From NCBI GenBank assembly GCA_048938105.1, contig JBHLMN010000002.1:320001-384000 (forward strand): DNA of 64,000 nt, in the 5' to 3' direction. Below are positions 46,507 through 52,255 of this stretch, in pieces; position 1 is the stretch's first letter, and each line of letters begins with the position of its first letter. Origin of the DNA: Promethearchaeota archaeon (GTDB lineage Archaea; Asgardarchaeota; Heimdallarchaeia; Hodarchaeales; Hodarchaeaceae). The notes beneath the pieces are model-generated. The model did no database searches. It was not told the origin of the DNA and was given only the letters and a program-made list of their open reading frames with translations. A program made the translations under genes and the position numbers.

Positions 46507-47163
46507 ATGAGATATATCATTGTGAAAATAATAGGAGTACCTTTCTTAATTCTTTTCATGAATCTTGGCTTCATTTTAGTAGCTAGGGAAGTATTCAGCA
46601 ATCTTTCAACAATAGTCCCAATTCTTCTTCTTGATGCATTTATCTGTATAGATATCATTATAAGACCAATTTCTGCAAAAAAAGATAAGTTTAATCGATT
46701 TATTAGTGCAATTTCATTTTTATTAATACCAATCTGGTTTACATTACCATATTTTGAGTTCAAAGTGCTAATTTCTAAAAGTCTTCCTTCCTTCATATTA
46801 AATTGTGTATCAATAATTGGAACTGTATTACTTGTTTTCGGAGGCCTTCTCTTGTTATTTAACCGGATACATCTAGGAAAATATGGCGGTCCAAAGCTTG
46901 TAATTGAAGAAGAACACCAGCTAATAACCACAGGTCTGTATAAATTTGTTCGACACCCTATGTATTCTGGATTCTTAATCTTATTTTTTGGTTACTCTTT
47001 AGCTTTCGGGAGTATTCTCATGACAATTACGATAACAACTGTTTTATTTCTAATATTTAAAACACGAATGGATATTGAGGAAAAACTACTAATAACAGAG
47101 TTCGGTGAAGAGTATTCTACATATATGAAGCGAACTAAGCGGTTGTTCCCTTTATTGTATTAA
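46507..47163 (+). CDS. Isoprenylcysteine carboxyl methyltransferase / PEMT family membrane protein
   Basis: HQLITTGLYKFVRHPMYSG, EEKLL..EFGEEY..YMKRTKR. Confidence 0.9.
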   Translation: MRYIIVKIIGVPFLILFMNLGFILVAREVFSNLSTIVPILLLDAFICIDIIIRPISAKKDKFNRFISAISFLLIPIWFTLPYFEFKVLISKSLPSFILNCVSIIGTVLLVFGGLLLLFNRIHLGKYGGPKLVIEEEHQLITTGLYKFVRHPMYSGFLILFFGYSLAFGSILMTITITTVLFLIFKTRMDIEEKLLITEFGEEYSTYMKRTKRLFPLLY

Positions 47164-47235
47164 TAATTGTTTTTTAATTCAAGAAAGACTAAATCTCAGG
47201 GCATTACACATATAGTAATTATAGGAGGTCAGAAA

Positions 47236-48114
47236 ATGGGAATAGAAAAAACTTCCAGTTACCATGAAGTTGAACTTATTGAAGAAGAAGCATCAGCTCT
47301 CTATGAGTTGGAGGAAATAACTAGATTGAAAATACCAAGTGGGAAATGTGGATTTTATAACTCAGGTTTCAAATTTAAAGACAAAAAAATTATCGGATTA
47401 AGCCTTCATCATAGAGAAATGTCCTATCTGCCTGGATGTATAGGTAATTTTCGCTACATTCAGAAATTGTATTTACGTGACAATCAACTAAGCGCTCTCC
47501 CTGATTGGATAGGTGACTTGCAAAATTTAAAGAATTTAGATGTATTCAATAACCAAATAAAATCCTTACCCAAGAGTATAGGAAAATTAGTGAACCTAGA
47601 GAGACTAGATTTATCACGAAATCAGACGAAGAAATTACCAAAAAGCATAGGAAATCTAAAGAGGCTTAAGAGGTTAGGCTTGTTACATGTTCAATTGGAG
47701 TGTCTCCCACAATCTATTGGAGAGTTAATAAACCTCCGAGATTTATGTGCAAACATAAATTACTTGAAATCATTACCTGAGTCACTTGGAAATTTAACCA
47801 AGCTTAAAGATTTAAGTCTTCATAAAAATCAATTAATAGCTGTTCCAGAAACTCTGGGAAACTTACAAAACCTAGAAGTATTAAGTTTACATAATAATAA
47901 ATTGACTTTTCTTCCTGATAGCATTGGAAAATTAACTGAATTGAAAACATTAAGACTTGAGAATAATCGTTTGAATACACTGCCTTTAAATATTAAAAAC
48001 TTAAAAAACCTTCAAAGTCTATGGATTGGCAATAATTTATTTGATAAGTTGTCTGACGAATTGGAAAACTGGATTAAATACCTGAAATCCTCAGGATGTA
48101 AGGTTAGGAGATAG
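47236..48114 (+). CDS. Leucine-rich repeat protein (about nine 23-aa LRRs)
   Basis: LxxLxLxxNxLxxLPxxIG repeats; GGAGGT SD before ATG 47236. Confidence 0.92.
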   Translation: MGIEKTSSYHEVELIEEEASALYELEEITRLKIPSGKCGFYNSGFKFKDKKIIGLSLHHREMSYLPGCIGNFRYIQKLYLRDNQLSALPDWIGDLQNLKNLDVFNNQIKSLPKSIGKLVNLERLDLSRNQTKKLPKSIGNLKRLKRLGLLHVQLECLPQSIGELINLRDLCANINYLKSLPESLGNLTKLKDLSLHKNQLIAVPETLGNLQNLEVLSLHNNKLTFLPDSIGKLTELKTLRLENNRLNTLPLNIKNLKNLQSLWIGNNLFDKLSDELENWIKYLKSSGCKVRR

Positions 48115-49376: not shown

Positions 49377-49497
49377 ACAAAATTACCATAAGAAAGATTC
49401 AGTTTCTTTGCGAAAATCAAAAAAGTTTTAAATGTTTGCGTCACTTATTCAAACAGAGCAATATTTGTGCAAATAATACTCAAGACTGATCCCTAAG

Positions 49498-50514
49498 ATG
49501 GAGCAACAGAGTTCCCTTCCCGTTGATGAAAATGCCTTTCCAAGATTTCTTGAAGGTAAAGATTTCTATTCAATGTTTTTTGAAGCTTTCAATAAGTTAG
49601 CAAGATATATTGATCTGATTAATGATATCAATGTATTTCCTGTGCCTGACGGTGATACTGGAATTAATATGTACCAGACTTTTAGATCAATTGTTAATGA
49701 AATTAAAAATGTTAAGGAAAGTAATCATTGTGGTAAGATCATTTCTGCTGCATCTCTTGGAGCTTTTCGGGGTAGTGTTGGTAATTCTGGAATTATCCTA
49801 GCAGAATATTTTCGTGGTTTAGAAAAGATCTGTGGATATTTTTATACTATTGACAGTGTCTTATTTGCTAGGGGATTAAAATCAGCAGCTACCCTAGCCT
49901 ATCAAGCTGTAGAGCATCCTAAGGAGGGAACTATTCTTACTGTAGCCCGAATAATCGCAGAAACAGCTATGAAGTGGGCTAATACTTTAATTAGTCCTTA
50001 TGAGTTACTTTTTTTAGTTTTTGATAAGGCAAAAATAGCTTTACTAGACACTCATCGTCTTTTGCATGAAGCAAACTTCGCTGGAGTTGTTGATGCAGGA
50101 GCAATAGGTTTAGTCCTCATCTTTGAGGGATTTATTAGCGCACTAGTTCGTAAACCCCAAATTATTATCACCTCATTTCAAACCATTGATGAGGATTTAC
50201 TTCCATTTTTAAAACCAAAAATCAATTCACAAGAGAATAACCCAGAATTTGAGTTAATCTTTAGAATTAGTAATTTAATGAAGCCTTTAGATCTCATTAA
50301 AGTTGAGCTTAGGAAGGAAGGAAACTGCCTTTTAGTTATCAGTAATGATTCATTATCAGAAATTAAAGTTCATATTCATTGTTCTAATCCCAACAAAGTT
50401 ATAAGCAAAATGAGAAGTTTTGTTGGTTCTTTCGAATTAATTTCGATTCAGGCATTACATGAGCAAAATCTCGAGCTCATTGAACGTATTGAAAAGACTG
50501 TAAAAGTTGATTAG
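49498..50514 (+). CDS. fakA: DAK2-domain fatty acid kinase catalytic subunit (FakA-like, C-terminally short)
   Basis: INDINVFPVPDGDTGINM, GNSGIIL, AYQAV..PKEGTILTV, GVVDAGA.G, KVHIH. Confidence 0.9.
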   Translation: MEQQSSLPVDENAFPRFLEGKDFYSMFFEAFNKLARYIDLINDINVFPVPDGDTGINMYQTFRSIVNEIKNVKESNHCGKIISAASLGAFRGSVGNSGIILAEYFRGLEKICGYFYTIDSVLFARGLKSAATLAYQAVEHPKEGTILTVARIIAETAMKWANTLISPYELLFLVFDKAKIALLDTHRLLHEANFAGVVDAGAIGLVLIFEGFISALVRKPQIIITSFQTIDEDLLPFLKPKINSQENNPEFELIFRISNLMKPLDLIKVELRKEGNCLLVISNDSLSEIKVHIHCSNPNKVISKMRSFVGSFELISIQALHEQNLELIERIEKTVKVD

Positions 50515-50516
50515 CA

Positions 50517-51404
50517 TTGAAAGTTGGTATCGTTACCGATTCAATGAGTGATTTATCTCCTGAGCTTGCTAAAAAATATGGGATTGTAATTGTGCCTGGA
50601 ACAGTGTTTATTGATAATAACCCTTATCGTAGCGGAATCGATATATTTCCAAGTGATATTGAAGACCTTATAATAGAAAATAGTAAGAAAATAAGCACAG
50701 GAGCACCTTCTGCAGCAGAATATTACAACGCCTATACACACCTTTATGATATTGTGGATATTATTCTAAGTATTCATAGTCCTAGTAAGGTTACAGCTAC
50801 TTCGAGTGTGGCAAGAGTTGCAGCTAAACGATTAGAAGATCCAACGAGAGTAATTAGATTCGAATGTGGTGTTGGATCCTTGGGGTTAGGCTTAACCGCA
50901 ATTGCAGCGGCTATCACAGCAAAACAAGTGAGGGAACTATCAGAACTACTTCAAAGAGTCGCAGAATACTGTGAGAGGATTCAGATCATTGGAACCCTTG
51001 ATTCATTCAAATATCTTCAGAGAAGCGGACGAGTCAAACTAAAAATTACTGGTTTTCTGGCGAATGCTCTCTCTGTTAAACCTGTATTAATGATGCACGG
51101 AGATGATATTATTCTTTTAGAAAAACCACGAAATCGGCAAAAGGCTCTTGATTTTATGATTGAATCAGTGATTAAAAATATTGACATGAAATGTATCCCG
51201 AAAATGATAGGAATAGGCCATTTCAGTTGTGTTGAAGAAGCGAGAGGAGTTGAGGGTATTATCAGACAGAATTTTCCTGAACATGAGATTATCCAGGGAA
51301 ACGTTGATCCAATGATCGTTGCTCATACAGGCCCAGGGTTGATCTTGCTTTCATTTTTCGGTACATTAGATAATTCAGATAGAGGAGAAAGCATCAATGA
51401 TTGA
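50517..51404 (+). CDS. degV: DegV-family fatty-acid-binding protein (FakB-like)
   Basis: IVTDSMSDL, ISTGAPS, YLQRSGR, LSVKPVL, HTGPG. Confidence 0.92.
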   Translation: MKVGIVTDSMSDLSPELAKKYGIVIVPGTVFIDNNPYRSGIDIFPSDIEDLIIENSKKISTGAPSAAEYYNAYTHLYDIVDIILSIHSPSKVTATSSVARVAAKRLEDPTRVIRFECGVGSLGLGLTAIAAAITAKQVRELSELLQRVAEYCERIQIIGTLDSFKYLQRSGRVKLKITGFLANALSVKPVLMMHGDDIILLEKPRNRQKALDFMIESVIKNIDMKCIPKMIGIGHFSCVEEARGVEGIIRQNFPEHEIIQGNVDPMIVAHTGPGLILLSFFGTLDNSDRGESIND

Positions 51405-52074
51405 AGTCCTAGTAGCAGGATTTTTTGGATATCTGATGGGGTCAATTTTCATTTCCTATTTTCTAGTTTATTTTGTCAAAGGAATCGATTTGACGAAAGT
51501 AGGAACTGGTCAATTAGGCGCATCAAATACTGGGCGAATTTTAGGATGGCCAGTAATGATTCTTGTGGGTTTATTTGATATTTTTAAAGCAGCCTTTGCT
51601 CTTTTCGTCATAACGTTTTTTTTTGGATCTTCTCCTTGTTATGGGGCTACAATTATCCTTAGTAGCTGCGGTATTATTATTGGGCATACTCATTCGCTTC
51701 TGATCTATTTACATAAAAGGGAATGGTGTGGAGGAAAGGGTGGAGCTCCTCTCGGTGGTGTGATCTTTTTTCTTTCTTGGGAGAGTTTTTTGATTCTTTA
51801 TTTCTTTTTAATGCCTTTGATCCAACTTGGGAAAAGACTGTGGAAAAAACAAAGCATATATGAAAACTTCATTCCCAATGCTATTGTTGGGTTTTTCACT
51901 CCCTTTGTCGTTTTATATTTAACTGGTAATCCGCTTTACGTATTTTTAATCCTATTGCTACTAGGAATTATTGTTTATTCCGAGAGAGAAAAGGTCAAGA
52001 GTATTTTATTCCCTAATTCAGATGATAAAGATTCTATATCAAGTTCTTATCTTGGGATTAATAAGAGCTATTAA
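51397..52074 (+). CDS. plsY: Acyl-phosphate:glycerol-3-phosphate acyltransferase PlsY-like
   Basis: GYLMGSI, GIDL..VGTGQLGASNTGR..G, DIFK, GH...GGKG; motif 3 divergent. Confidence 0.85.
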   Translation: MIEVLVAGFFGYLMGSIFISYFLVYFVKGIDLTKVGTGQLGASNTGRILGWPVMILVGLFDIFKAAFALFVITFFFGSSPCYGATIILSSCGIIIGHTHSLLIYLHKREWCGGKGGAPLGGVIFFLSWESFLILYFFLMPLIQLGKRLWKKQSIYENFIPNAIVGFFTPFVVLYLTGNPLYVFLILLLLGIIVYSEREKVKSILFPNSDDKDSISSSYLGINKSY

Positions 52075-52255
52075 AATGTTCATCATAAAAAAGCTAAAAA
52101 TATACTCTAAAAGTGACCCAAACAGTATAAAAATTCCATTAGCTCATATTTCCTCAGACCAAGCGGCTCAGAGCAATACTAAAACTTAGTTTTTGCAATA
52201 AGCAGCTTCATAAGAAAAATAGTTCAGTCATTATCAAGACCTAGAGTGATTTTTT

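What the first reader, a model, noticed from the sequence alone, without database searches (positions are those of the whole stretch)
49498..52074. Bacterial-type fatty acid kinase-PlsY operon (fakA-fakB-plsY) in an archaeal genome
Seen: three coupled genes (2-bp gap, then 8-bp overlap) embedded between an archaeal DRG GTPase and a P2A ATPase, with base composition like the rest of the window. Established: FakA phosphorylates a fatty acid held by FakB/DegV, and PlsY transfers acyl-phosphate to glycerol-3-phosphate, giving lysophosphatidic acid, the first step of bacterial ester lipid synthesis; archaea canonically make G1P isoprenoid ethers. Inference: a self-contained, ACP- and CoA-independent route to put scavenged fatty acids into ester or hybrid lipids, directly relevant to the lipid divide if the host is Asgard. 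PlsY homologs in some uncultured archaea are known; I am not aware of a functional characterisation of this three-gene unit.
Basis: partly seen in the sequence, partly recalled or inferred. Interest (0 to 1): 0.85.

Follow-up and report, generated by a model that had tools for sequence, protein, structure and literature searches.

The report
Archaeal fatty-acid kinase–PlsY lipid operon
A Hodarchaeales (Asgard) archaeon carries a conserved three-gene operon, a shortened fatty-acid kinase, its fatty-acid carrier and an altered PlsY acyltransferase, that could supply the acyl-phosphate donor archaeal PlsY genes seemed to lack, but which lipid it makes is untested.

Summary
Three coupled genes lie at 49498-52074 (2-bp gap, 8-bp overlap) on a 410-kb contig with the genome's own composition. 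They encode Dak2+FakA-middle (338 aa), DegV/FakB (295 aa) and PlsY (225 aa). Each is single-copy.

The host is an Asgard archaeon of the Hodarchaeales group. The same gene order recurs in 9 other species genomes of its family. In the sister family, PlsY and the kinase are one fused protein followed by DegV.

The best reading is free fatty acid to acyl-phosphate to an acyl-glycerol-phosphate.

It is not a plain copy of the bacterial system:
- The kinase lacks the FakB-docking C domain, and its zinc-site Cys is Glu.
- The PlsY clade has replaced two G3P-pocket residues (His177 to Glu/Asp, Asn180 to Lys), so the acceptor (G3P, G1P or other) is open.

The genome has GlpK, two G1PDH-like genes and five PlsC-like genes. 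I found no PlsX, GpsA or FAS II condensing enzyme.

Asgard PlsY is in print; I found no paper on an Asgard Fak system. This scan had already noted such cassettes in at least 25 other genomes (Heimdall-group and DPANN).

Verdict: new variant of a known kind, interest 0.66.

The parts
49377..49497 (+). 121-bp AT-rich intergenic region upstream of fakA, with a TTTTAAAT TATA-like element at 49426-49433. This is a putative archaeal promoter and has not been tested.
   Evidence: Sequence read directly. The assignment is an inference only.
49498..50514 (+). Short FakA-like kinase (338 aa). It has a Dak2/DhaL ATP-binding domain plus the FakA middle domain and no C-terminal FakB-docking domain.
   Evidence: Pfam gives PF02734 at 99 bits and PF21645 at 40 bits. 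It matches only positions 1-302 of 530 in TIGR03599 and 3-319 of 549 in NF038248. The DGDTG, GNSG, EGTILTV, GVVDAG and HxH motifs are kept, and Cys240 is Glu. dN/dS is 0.15-0.18.
50517..51404 (+). DegV/FakB-family fatty-acid-binding protein (295 aa, TTG start).
   Evidence: PF02645 scores 170 bits and TIGR00762 scores 190 bits, above the cut-off of 99.7. It aligns over its full length to FakB2 (4x9x) and 1pzx, and the GGR arginine and the HTG histidine are kept. dN/dS is 0.20-0.24.
51397..52074 (+). Derived PlsY-family membrane acyltransferase (225 aa as called).
   Evidence: PF02660 scores 78.7 bits; TIGR00023 scores 66.8, below the cut-off of 137. The AlphaFold2 model matches only Aquifex PlsY 5xj5-8, with TM 0.61-0.72. 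Arg45, His92 and the GGKG loop are kept, while His177 is Glu and Asn180 is Lys. dN/dS is 0.19-0.30.
52046..52189 (+). Out-of-frame remnant of the PlsY C-terminal tail. These 47 residues are 85% identical to the tail of the closest orthologue but are read in another frame. A frameshift lies near 52035-52045. It is either a real mutation or an assembly error.
   Evidence: The ORF 51971-52189 is listed.

Best explanation
This is a native, vertically maintained operon of Hodarchaeales encoding a minimal fatty-acid kinase coupled to a PlsY-type acyltransferase.

The proposed mechanism has three steps:
1. DegV (a FakB homologue) binds a free fatty acid. The fatty acid is most likely scavenged or released by a lipase, because the genome has no recognisable FAS II condensing enzyme.
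2. The 338-aa kinase, a natural equivalent of the active S. aureus FakA_NL truncation, uses ATP to phosphorylate the carboxyl group and give acyl-phosphate.
3. The membrane PlsY homologue transfers the acyl group to a phosphorylated glycerol acceptor, giving an ester-linked lyso-lipid. The five PlsC-like acyltransferases could acylate this further.

What is shown: domain content, conserved catalytic motifs, gene coupling, conserved synteny, gene fusion and purifying selection.

What is inferred: kinase activity, fatty acid as the ligand, hand-over of acyl-phosphate to PlsY, and the identity of the acceptor. G3P from GlpK is the default. G1P or another acceptor is possible because the pocket is altered.
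For: - Domains and motifs are as described under parts.
- Each of the three genes is single-copy in a 99%-complete genome.
- The fakA-degV-plsY order and overlaps are conserved at 10 loci in 9 other species genomes. The flanks are unrelated in the more distant ones.
- Presence and absence of the three genes coincide exactly across the 20 other species genomes of the family. Nine have all three and eleven have none.
- In the sister family, one 585-598-aa ORF encodes PlsY, Dak2 and FakA_M, followed by DegV with a 4-bp overlap. A further example lies on a 90.8-kb contig beside ribosomal proteins L19e and L32e.
- The operon-linked and fused PlsYs fall together on one side of a well-supported branch (SH-aLRT 98).
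- Lipase/esterase-like alpha/beta hydrolases sit directly beside the operon at 7 loci, and they come from two different families.
- dN/dS is 0.15-0.30 for all three genes.
- The FakA_NL truncation of S. aureus is catalytically active, with a KM for FakB1 of 0.99 uM against 0.09 uM for the full-length enzyme (PMC9136124).
- Bacterial PlsY-DegV fusions, and the idea of FakB-to-PlsY channelling, are already in print (PMC5700162).
- The genome has no PlsX, so the kinase is the only visible source of acyl-phosphate.
- Candidate downstream and supply enzymes are present: GlpK at 712 bits, above its cut-off, and five PlsC-family genes.
Against: - There are no biochemical, transcript or lipid data.
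- All three proteins score far below the NCBIfam equivalog cut-offs.
- The FakB-docking domain is absent from the whole genome.
- Cys240, whose C240A mutation lowers S. aureus FakA activity more than 100-fold, is Glu throughout this family.
- His177 has no tolerated substitute in Aquifex PlsY and Asn180 is very sensitive to change, yet both are replaced here.
- The operon is accessory. It is missing from 11 of 20 other species genomes of the family, three of them single-contig.
- PlsC-like genes and GlpK do not co-vary with the operon.
- This copy of plsY has a 3' frameshift.
- The only lipidomics the papers read here mention for a cultured Asgard archaeon (a Lokiarchaeon) showed only archaeal phospholipids (cited in PMC13400652).
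Confidence: 0.62

Rival explanations
1. The kinase module works as above, but the derived PlsY does not use sn-glycerol-3-phosphate. It acylates the archaeal backbone sn-glycerol-1-phosphate, or an ether lyso-lipid such as GGGP. The product would be heterochiral or mixed ether/ester lipids rather than bacterial lysophosphatidate.
For: - The replaced residues are exactly those that bind the G3P 2-OH (His177) and clamp its phosphate (Asn180). The replacements are fixed within the clade: Glu or Asp at position 177, Lys at 180 in family f1, and Thr or Ser at 180 in the fused forms.
- Other Heimdallarchaeia PlsYs keep the canonical KHxxN motif.
- A basic residue at 180, together with the retained Arg45 and Lys104, still fits a phosphorylated acceptor.
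- The genome has two G1PDH-like genes and the ether-lipid enzymes GGGPS-like and CarS, but no GpsA.
- Ordinary bacterial PlsY and PlsC already accept G1P (PMC13400652).
Against: - GlpK is present in 20 of 23 genomes of the order, so G3P is obtainable.
- Bacterial PlsY accepts G1P without these substitutions, so they are not required for that activity.
- No coordinates were available to check the pocket geometry, and the model has only pLDDT 74.5.
- The substitutions could instead compensate for the 5-aa loop insertion.
Confidence: 0.22
2. The module is not a lipid-synthesis route. The DegV/Dak2 pair would phosphorylate or sense another carboxylate or lipid, for example for signalling or for detoxifying free fatty acids. 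The PlsY-like protein would have a different role.
For: - Equivalog scores are far below their cut-offs.
- The unit is accessory within the family.
- Large DegV paralogue expansions (6 or more copies) in other Heimdallarchaeia families suggest varied ligands.
- Coleman et al. judged it unlikely that archaeal PlsY and PlsC act in membrane lipid synthesis (PMC6431249).
Against: - The acyl-phosphate-binding elements of PlsY are kept: His92, a hydroxyl residue at position 41, and the GGKG loop.
- The FakB arginine essential for phosphotransfer is kept.
- Fusion of the kinase to PlsY argues for direct metabolic coupling.
- Lipase-like genes sit beside the operon.
Confidence: 0.1
3. The finding is an artefact: a bacterial contaminant, a chimeric contig or a very recent bacterial transfer. 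Alternatively, it is a decaying relic in this genome.
For: - The bin has 7.25% estimated contamination.
- plsY carries a 3' frameshift.
Against: - The contig is 410 kb and the operon has the genome's composition.
- The neighbours are a DRG GTPase and other Asgard-type genes.
- The closest homologues of all three proteins (45-88% identity) are only in Asgard MAGs, after which identity drops to about 35% for bacterial proteins.
- Synteny is conserved in 9 other genomes.
- dN/dS is 0.15-0.30.
- The frameshift removes only a non-conserved tail lying after the last conserved motif.
Confidence: 0.03

Closest known systems
Firmicute fatty acid kinase FakA/FakB feeding PlsY (S. aureus, S. suis, B. subtilis YloV/DegV; PDB 7w7h, 7rm7, 4x9x)
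   Same: It has the same three protein families and the same predicted chemistry: fatty acid on DegV, plus ATP, gives acyl-phosphate, which goes to PlsY. The ATP/Mg motifs, the HxH motif of the middle domain and the FakB phosphotransfer arginine are conserved.
   Different: The kinase has no C-terminal FakB-docking domain, and its zinc-site Cys is Glu. The three genes form one tightly coupled operon, or a fusion. From my own knowledge, not tested here, these genes are usually dispersed in Firmicutes. The host is an archaeon without PlsX or a recognisable FAS II condensing enzyme (only a marginal ACP-like hit).
S. aureus FakA_NL truncation (PMC9136124)
   Same: The domain content, N plus middle, is the same as in the window's 338-aa protein. 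The truncation is catalytically active and dimeric.
   Different: FakA_NL is a laboratory construct with about 10-fold weaker affinity for FakB. Here the short form is the natural state across Heimdallarchaeia. Complete short forms also occur on some bacteria-like contigs.
Bacterial PlsY-DegV fusions of Bellilinea caldifistulae and Thermanaerothrix daxensis (noted in PMC5700162)
   Same: A soluble Fak-system partner is fused to the C-terminus of PlsY, which has been read as channelling of the labile acyl-phosphate.
   Different: In the Hodarchaeales sister family the fused partner is the kinase (Dak2 + FakA_M), not DegV. DegV is the next gene. Only four clusters at 90% identity with this architecture were listed in a search of 5.8 billion proteins.
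Previously reported Asgard PlsY and PlsC homologues (Coleman 2019, PMC6431249; Manoharan 2019, PMC6737245; Rieche 2026, PMC13400652)
   Same: A PF02660 protein in Asgard genomes, discussed in connection with the lipid divide.
   Different: Those papers found no archaeal PlsX and named no source of acyl-phosphate. The linkage to the kinase and DegV, the fusion and the altered acceptor pocket were not described in any paper the searches retrieved.
Aquifex aeolicus PlsY (PDB 5xj5-5xj9)
   Same: It has the 7-TMH fold (TM 0.61-0.72). Arg45, His92 and the Gly-Gly-Lys-Gly phosphate-hole loop are kept, and position 41 still carries a hydroxyl.
   Different: Ser35 is Thr, Asn37 is Gln, His177 is Glu and Asn180 is Lys. 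There is a 5-aa insertion after the His92 motif and an insertion of about 10 aa before the last helices.

Membership tests
FakA (fatty acid kinase catalytic subunit; TIGR03599 YloV / NF038248) | Dak2/DhaL ATP-binding N domain with the DGDTG Mg/ATP motif | tested here: met
   PF02734 scores 99 bits. The protein is 36-40% identical to SaFakA_N and to 7w7h. The DGDTG, GNSG, EGTILTV and GVVDAG motifs are conserved.
FakA (fatty acid kinase catalytic subunit; TIGR03599 YloV / NF038248) | Middle domain with the Cys-His-His(-His) zinc/catalytic cluster | tested here: inconclusive
   PF21645 scores 40 bits, and the HxH motif (KVHIH) is kept. The Cys240 equivalent is Glu in all family-f1 proteins and is Cys in the fused f2 forms. 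Glu-His-His could still bind a metal, but this has not been tested.
FakA (fatty acid kinase catalytic subunit; TIGR03599 YloV / NF038248) | C-terminal DegV-like FakB-docking domain (PF13684) | tested here: not met
   The protein ends after the middle domain. PF13684 has no match anywhere in the 99%-complete genome.
FakA (fatty acid kinase catalytic subunit; TIGR03599 YloV / NF038248) | Score above the curated NCBIfam cut-off | tested here: not met
   TIGR03599 scores 227.7 against a cut-off of 396.1. NF038248 scores 168.4 against 975.
FakA (fatty acid kinase catalytic subunit; TIGR03599 YloV / NF038248) | ATP-dependent phosphorylation of FakB-bound fatty acid | not testable with these tools
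   This needs a radiochemical or coupled enzyme assay.
DegV/FakB fatty-acid-binding protein (PF02645, TIGR00762) | Full-length DegV (EDD) domain above the curated cut-offs | tested here: met
   PF02645 scores 170.3 against a cut-off of 27. TIGR00762 scores 190.2 against 99.7.
DegV/FakB fatty-acid-binding protein (PF02645, TIGR00762) | Conserved arginine required for phosphotransfer (FakB1 Arg173, GGR motif) and the carboxyl-binding Thr, Ser and His | tested here: met
   The alignment to 4x9x and 1pzx shows sGRv aligned with gGRis, the HTG histidine, and the Thr and Ser positions kept. The role of Arg173 is taken from PMC9136124. The roles of the Thr, Ser and His residues come from my own knowledge.
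DegV/FakB fatty-acid-binding protein (PF02645, TIGR00762) | FakB1 equivalog score | tested here: not met
   NF038249 scores 92.3 against a cut-off of 350.
PlsY acyl-phosphate:glycerol-3-phosphate acyltransferase (PF02660, TIGR00023) | PF02660 domain and the 7-TMH PlsY fold | tested here: met
   PF02660 scores 78.7 against a cut-off of 24.1. The AlphaFold2 model hits only 5xj5-8, with probability 1.0 and TM 0.61-0.72.
PlsY acyl-phosphate:glycerol-3-phosphate acyltransferase (PF02660, TIGR00023) | Acyl-phosphate site: hydroxyl at position 41, His92, and the Gly102-Gly103-Lys104-Gly105 loop | tested here: met
   Thr41 is Ser, a change that retains about half the activity in aaPlsY. His92 and GGKG are kept across the clade.
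PlsY acyl-phosphate:glycerol-3-phosphate acyltransferase (PF02660, TIGR00023) | G3P phosphate clamp: Ser35, Arg45, Lys104, Asn180 | tested here: not met
   Arg45 and Lys104 are kept. Ser35 is Thr (S35T has 17% activity in aaPlsY). Asn180 is Lys throughout the f1 clade.
PlsY acyl-phosphate:glycerol-3-phosphate acyltransferase (PF02660, TIGR00023) | His177, which binds the 2-OH of G3P (no substitute tolerated in aaPlsY) | tested here: not met
   The residue is Glu in f1, Asp in one outlier, and Asp in the fused f2 forms. Other Heimdallarchaeia PlsYs keep His.
PlsY acyl-phosphate:glycerol-3-phosphate acyltransferase (PF02660, TIGR00023) | Equivalog score | tested here: not met
   TIGR00023 scores 66.8 against a cut-off of 137.2.

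The most novel reading that the evidence does not exclude
Hodarchaeales, the order proposed as the closest relatives of eukaryotes, have remodelled a bacterial-type Fak-PlsY module. The kinase lost its docking domain and is operon-linked or fused to PlsY, and the acceptor pocket changed from His/Asn to Glu/Lys. On this reading, scavenged fatty acids are ester-linked to the archaeal G1P backbone or to an ether lyso-lipid. That would give heterochiral or mixed ether/ester membrane lipids in a living archaeon.
Probability: 0.2. Interest if true: 0.9.

Novelty: new variant of a known kind. Interest (0 to 1): 0.66.

Why it matters
PlsY genes in Asgard archaea have been cited since 2017 as a hint that the archaeal ancestor of eukaryotes could make ester lipids. 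They were also discounted, partly because no archaeal PlsX was known and so no source of acyl-phosphate. A conserved kinase-carrier-PlsY operon, with a kinase-PlsY fusion in the sister family, supplies that missing donor. It turns the idea into a three-protein system that can be cloned.

The altered acceptor pocket makes the stereochemistry of the product (G3P or G1P) a concrete and testable question about the lipid divide. Hodarchaeales strains have now been isolated, so lipidomics is becoming feasible.

There are limits. The module is accessory within the family. Eukaryotes use neither PlsY nor Fak, so this bears on the plasticity of archaeal membranes rather than on direct ancestry of the eukaryotic pathway.

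Tried and rejected
1. Chimera or contaminant: rejected on composition, contig length, conserved synteny and Asgard-only close homologues.
2. A split FakA with its C domain encoded elsewhere: PF13684 is absent from the genome, and the downstream gene is a true DegV, not a FakA_C domain.
3. PlsX as an alternative acyl-phosphate source: absent.
4. GpsA: absent. The PF01210 hits are 3-hydroxyacyl-CoA dehydrogenases, PanE and an octopine-dehydrogenase-like protein.
5. Co-variation of GlpK or PlsC-like genes with the operon across the order: none. Both are near-universal, so this test says nothing about the acceptor.
6. 'Short FakA is unique to archaea': rejected. Complete N+M forms occur on bacteria-like contigs beside DegV/FabH or CdsA/RelA. 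In the tree they nest among bacterial full-length FakAs.
7. P0221 (780 aa) as a possible PlsY-FakA-DegV triple fusion: rejected. It is a bacterial full-length FakA with an extra Dak2 stretch.
8. The C-terminal half of the roughly 400-aa PlsY-like proteins of family f20 looked to me like a CdsA or dolichol-kinase motif, but Pfam gives no match. This is left as a note.
9. The sigma-70 promoter/terminator scan was not run, because the host is archaeal.
10. Pocket geometry could not be examined, because the tools give no model coordinates.
11. The DPANN cassettes reported in earlier scan notes could not be checked here. The one scan of genome contigs was already used.
Full report
**Observation**

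The window holds three co-directional ORFs at 49498-50514, 50517-51404 (TTG start) and 51397-52074.

Pfam and NCBIfam give these assignments:
- Gene 1: Dak2 (99 bits) plus FakA-like_M (40 bits).
- Gene 2: DegV (170 bits; TIGR00762 190 bits, above its cut-off).
- Gene 3: G3P_acyltransf/PlsY (78.7 bits).

The flanking genes are a DRG-type GTPase (MMR_HSR1 + Xtn + TGS) and a type IIA P-type ATPase.

**Host and assembly**

The window is C6:320001-384000 of a 5.85-Mb bin with 65 contigs, 99% completeness and 7.25% contamination. Contig C6 is 410 kb.

The operon has GC 0.355 against 0.351 for the genome. Its tetranucleotide distance to the genome lies at the 22nd percentile of random windows.

The closest homologues of PlsY (52-85% identity) and of the kinase (42-88%) come only from MAGs that NCBI labels Hodarchaeota, Promethearchaeota, Heimdall-, Hermod-, Thor- or Odinarchaeota. 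The next tier is bacterial, at about 33-39% identity. I consider a chimeric or bacterial contig excluded.

**Anatomy of the kinase**

The 338-aa protein matches only positions 1-302 of 530 in YloV and 3-319 of 549 in FakA. It therefore has the ATP-binding N domain and the middle domain but not the C-terminal domain. PF13684 (FakA-like_C) has no match anywhere in the genome.

Published work shows that S. aureus FakA_C is the docking site for FakB. It also shows that the truncated FakA_NL is still an active kinase, with a KM for FakB1 of 0.99 uM against 0.09 uM for the full-length enzyme (PMC9136124).

The alignment shows DGDTG, GNSG, EGTILTV and GVVDAG conserved, along with the HxH motif. The residue equivalent to Cys240 is Glu in every protein of the window's family. 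It is Cys in the fused forms of the sister family. In S. suis FakA this Cys and three His residues form a structural zinc finger (PMC10848957).

**Anatomy of DegV**

DegV aligns over its full length with FakB2 (4x9x) and 1pzx. It keeps the GGR arginine that FakB needs for phosphotransfer, and the HTG histidine.

**Anatomy of PlsY**

The AlphaFold2 model (pLDDT 74.5) matches only Aquifex PlsY, at TM 0.61-0.72.

The acyl-phosphate elements defined in PMC5700162 are mostly kept: His92, a hydroxyl residue at position 41, the GGKG loop and Arg45.

The G3P pocket is changed. Ser35 is Thr, Asn37 is Gln, His177 is Glu and Asn180 is Lys. There is also a 5-aa insertion after the His92 motif.

These changes are invariant within the clade. 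The fused proteins of the sister family share the insertion and an acidic residue at position 177. Other Heimdallarchaeia PlsYs keep the canonical GSGN...R and KHxxN motifs.

In the PlsY tree, the operon-linked and fused PlsYs lie together on one side of a branch with SH-aLRT 98. They sit next to the canonical Heimdallarchaeia PlsYs. Bacterial sampling in that tree is thin.

**Comparative evidence for coupling**

I searched 399 genomes of the phylum, the window's own genome included, with each protein in turn:
- PlsY-like genes occur in 115 genomes.
- The kinase occurs in 67 and DegV in 71, all within the window's class. None was found in the other 318 genomes with these queries.
- In one family (f4) the kinase hits cover only the Dak2 domain and may be DhaL rather than FakA.
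- Within the window's family, the same 9 of 20 other species genomes have all three genes, and 11 have none.

At 10 loci the order fakA-degV-plsY and the gene overlaps are conserved. Only the two closest genomes share the wider neighbourhood.

Seven loci have an alpha/beta hydrolase of a lipase/esterase-like type directly beside the operon. It is either downstream of plsY (DUF676/PGAP1-like) or upstream of fakA (Abhydrolase_1/Lipase_2-like). Homologues exist elsewhere in the window's genome.

In both genomes of the sister family, a single ORF of 585 or 598 aa encodes PlsY, Dak2 and FakA_M. DegV follows with a 4-bp overlap. Only four clusters at 90% identity with this architecture were listed in a search of 5.8 billion proteins. 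One lies on a 90.8-kb contig beside ribosomal proteins L5e/L18p, L19e and L32e.

dN/dS against two orthologous loci is 0.15-0.30 for all three genes.

In the FakA tree, a branch with SH-aLRT 95 separates all archaeal short forms from the bacterial full-length proteins. This is compatible with one old origin in the class.

**Pathway context in this genome**

Present:
- Two G1PDH-like genes (280 and 317 bits to NF002022).
- A weak GGGPS-family gene.
- CarS, above its cut-off.
- A bona fide GlpK (712 bits, above the cut-off of 590).
- A GlpD-like gene.
- Five PlsC-family acyltransferases.
- Several 3-hydroxyacyl-CoA dehydrogenases.

Absent or only marginal:
- PlsX.
- GpsA.
- A real ketoacyl synthase.
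- ACP, where there is only a 25-bit PP-binding hit.

Both G3P (from glycerol) and G1P are therefore available. Fatty acids are more likely scavenged or released by lipases than made by FAS II. A second acylation would need acyl-CoA or another donor.

GlpK (20 of 23) and PlsC-like genes (23 of 23) are near-universal in the order. Neither tracks the operon.

**Most likely mechanism**

DegV binds a free fatty acid. The short kinase, presumably a dimer through its middle domain, phosphorylates it with ATP. The labile acyl-phosphate passes to the adjacent or fused PlsY. PlsY esterifies it to a phosphorylated glycerol acceptor.

The loss of the docking domain may be offset by co-translation from one operon, or by tethering the kinase to PlsY, as in the sister family. 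These steps are all inferred from homology and gene context. None has been shown.

The identity of the acceptor is the main open point. I put about 0.62 on the general pathway. Separately, I put about 0.2 on an acceptor other than G3P.

**Literature**

Asgard PlsY and PlsC are in print (PMC6431249, PMC6737245). Coleman et al. found no archaeal PlsX and doubted a role in lipid synthesis.

Rieche et al. 2026 showed that bacterial PlsY and PlsC accept G1P as well as G3P. They mention Asgard plsY.

Li et al. 2017 noted two bacterial PlsY-DegV fusions and proposed channelling.

Searches pairing 'fatty acid kinase', DegV or FakA/FakB with Asgard or archaea found no report of a Fak system in Asgard archaea. 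The preprint describing the Hodarchaeales isolates contains no lipid analysis.

The library covers open-access papers and preprints only, so a report elsewhere cannot be excluded.

Earlier notes of this scan describe similar cassettes in at least 25 other genomes, including Hodarchaeales, other Heimdall-group archaea and DPANN archaea. I confirmed the Hodarchaeales and Heimdall cases independently. I did not test the DPANN cases.

**Verdict**

This is a new variant of a known kind of system, the Fak-PlsY route. Its interest lies in the operon and fusion evidence and in the remodelled acceptor pocket. Its accessory distribution and the absence of any functional data hold the score down.

Noticed in passing
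window 52030-52189: The plsY of this genome is frameshifted near 52035-52045. The 47-residue C-terminal tail found in the closest orthologues (85% identity) is encoded in another frame, in ORF 51971-52189. The catalytic core is intact, and more distant family members lack the tail altogether. This could be a real mutation or an assembly error.
   Followed up: partly
L067:11055-11858, L068:10728-11522, L069:7808-8602, L072:3034-3831, L030:574-1377; L070:7450-8229, L071:7827-8606: Two different families of alpha/beta hydrolase sit directly beside the operon in seven related loci. One is DUF676/PGAP1-like and lies downstream of plsY. The other is Abhydrolase_1/Lipase_2-like and lies upstream of fakA. 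They are candidate lipases that could release the fatty acids.
   Followed up: partly
L063:2713-5152 and L087:8655-11078: In the sister family, the PlsY-kinase fusion and DegV are followed in two genomes by the same pair of genes: a radical SAM protein and a DUF1786 protein (annotated as a putative pyruvate formate-lyase activating enzyme). These may belong to the same unit.
   Followed up: no
L049:862-2085 (-), L054:1474-2679 (+); G244:C69, G266:C106, G269:C6: In the largest family of the phylum (f20), PlsY-like domains sit at the N-terminus of proteins of about 400 aa, often as tandem triplets. They lack His177. The C-terminal half carries an FGD...G..K...KT.EGT motif that reminded me of CdsA or dolichol kinase, but Pfam gives no match.
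   Followed up: partly
L073:5242-5955 (-), L074:2612-3325 (+): Another Heimdallarchaeia family (f7) has a divergent PlsY-like gene with GSGSVSTRN and no His177, directly downstream of a DegV gene. Separate fakA-degV pairs lie elsewhere in the same genomes. Genomes of f4 and f7 each carry six or more DegV paralogues.
   Followed up: partly
proteins P0228 and P0257: Complete short FakA forms (N + middle domains, 311-328 aa) also occur on bacteria-like contigs. One is next to DegV, FabH and an SLH-domain protein; the other is next to CdsA and RelA/SpoT. Loss of the docking domain is therefore not confined to archaea. Fusions of Dak2, FakA_M and a true DegV domain also exist (P0430, P0468, P0489).
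   Followed up: partly
window 46507-47163 and 47167-48114: A PEMT/ICMT-family membrane methyltransferase (phospholipid or isoprenylcysteine methyltransferase type) and a leucine-rich-repeat protein lie 1.4 to 3 kb upstream of the operon. The methyltransferase has a homologue of about 37% identity about 5-7 kb from the operon at two other loci (L068, L069).
   Followed up: no
G000:C20:118218-121701: One of the five PlsC-family acyltransferase genes (360 aa) lies about 1.6 kb from an FGGY-family sugar/glycerol-kinase-like gene.
   Followed up: no
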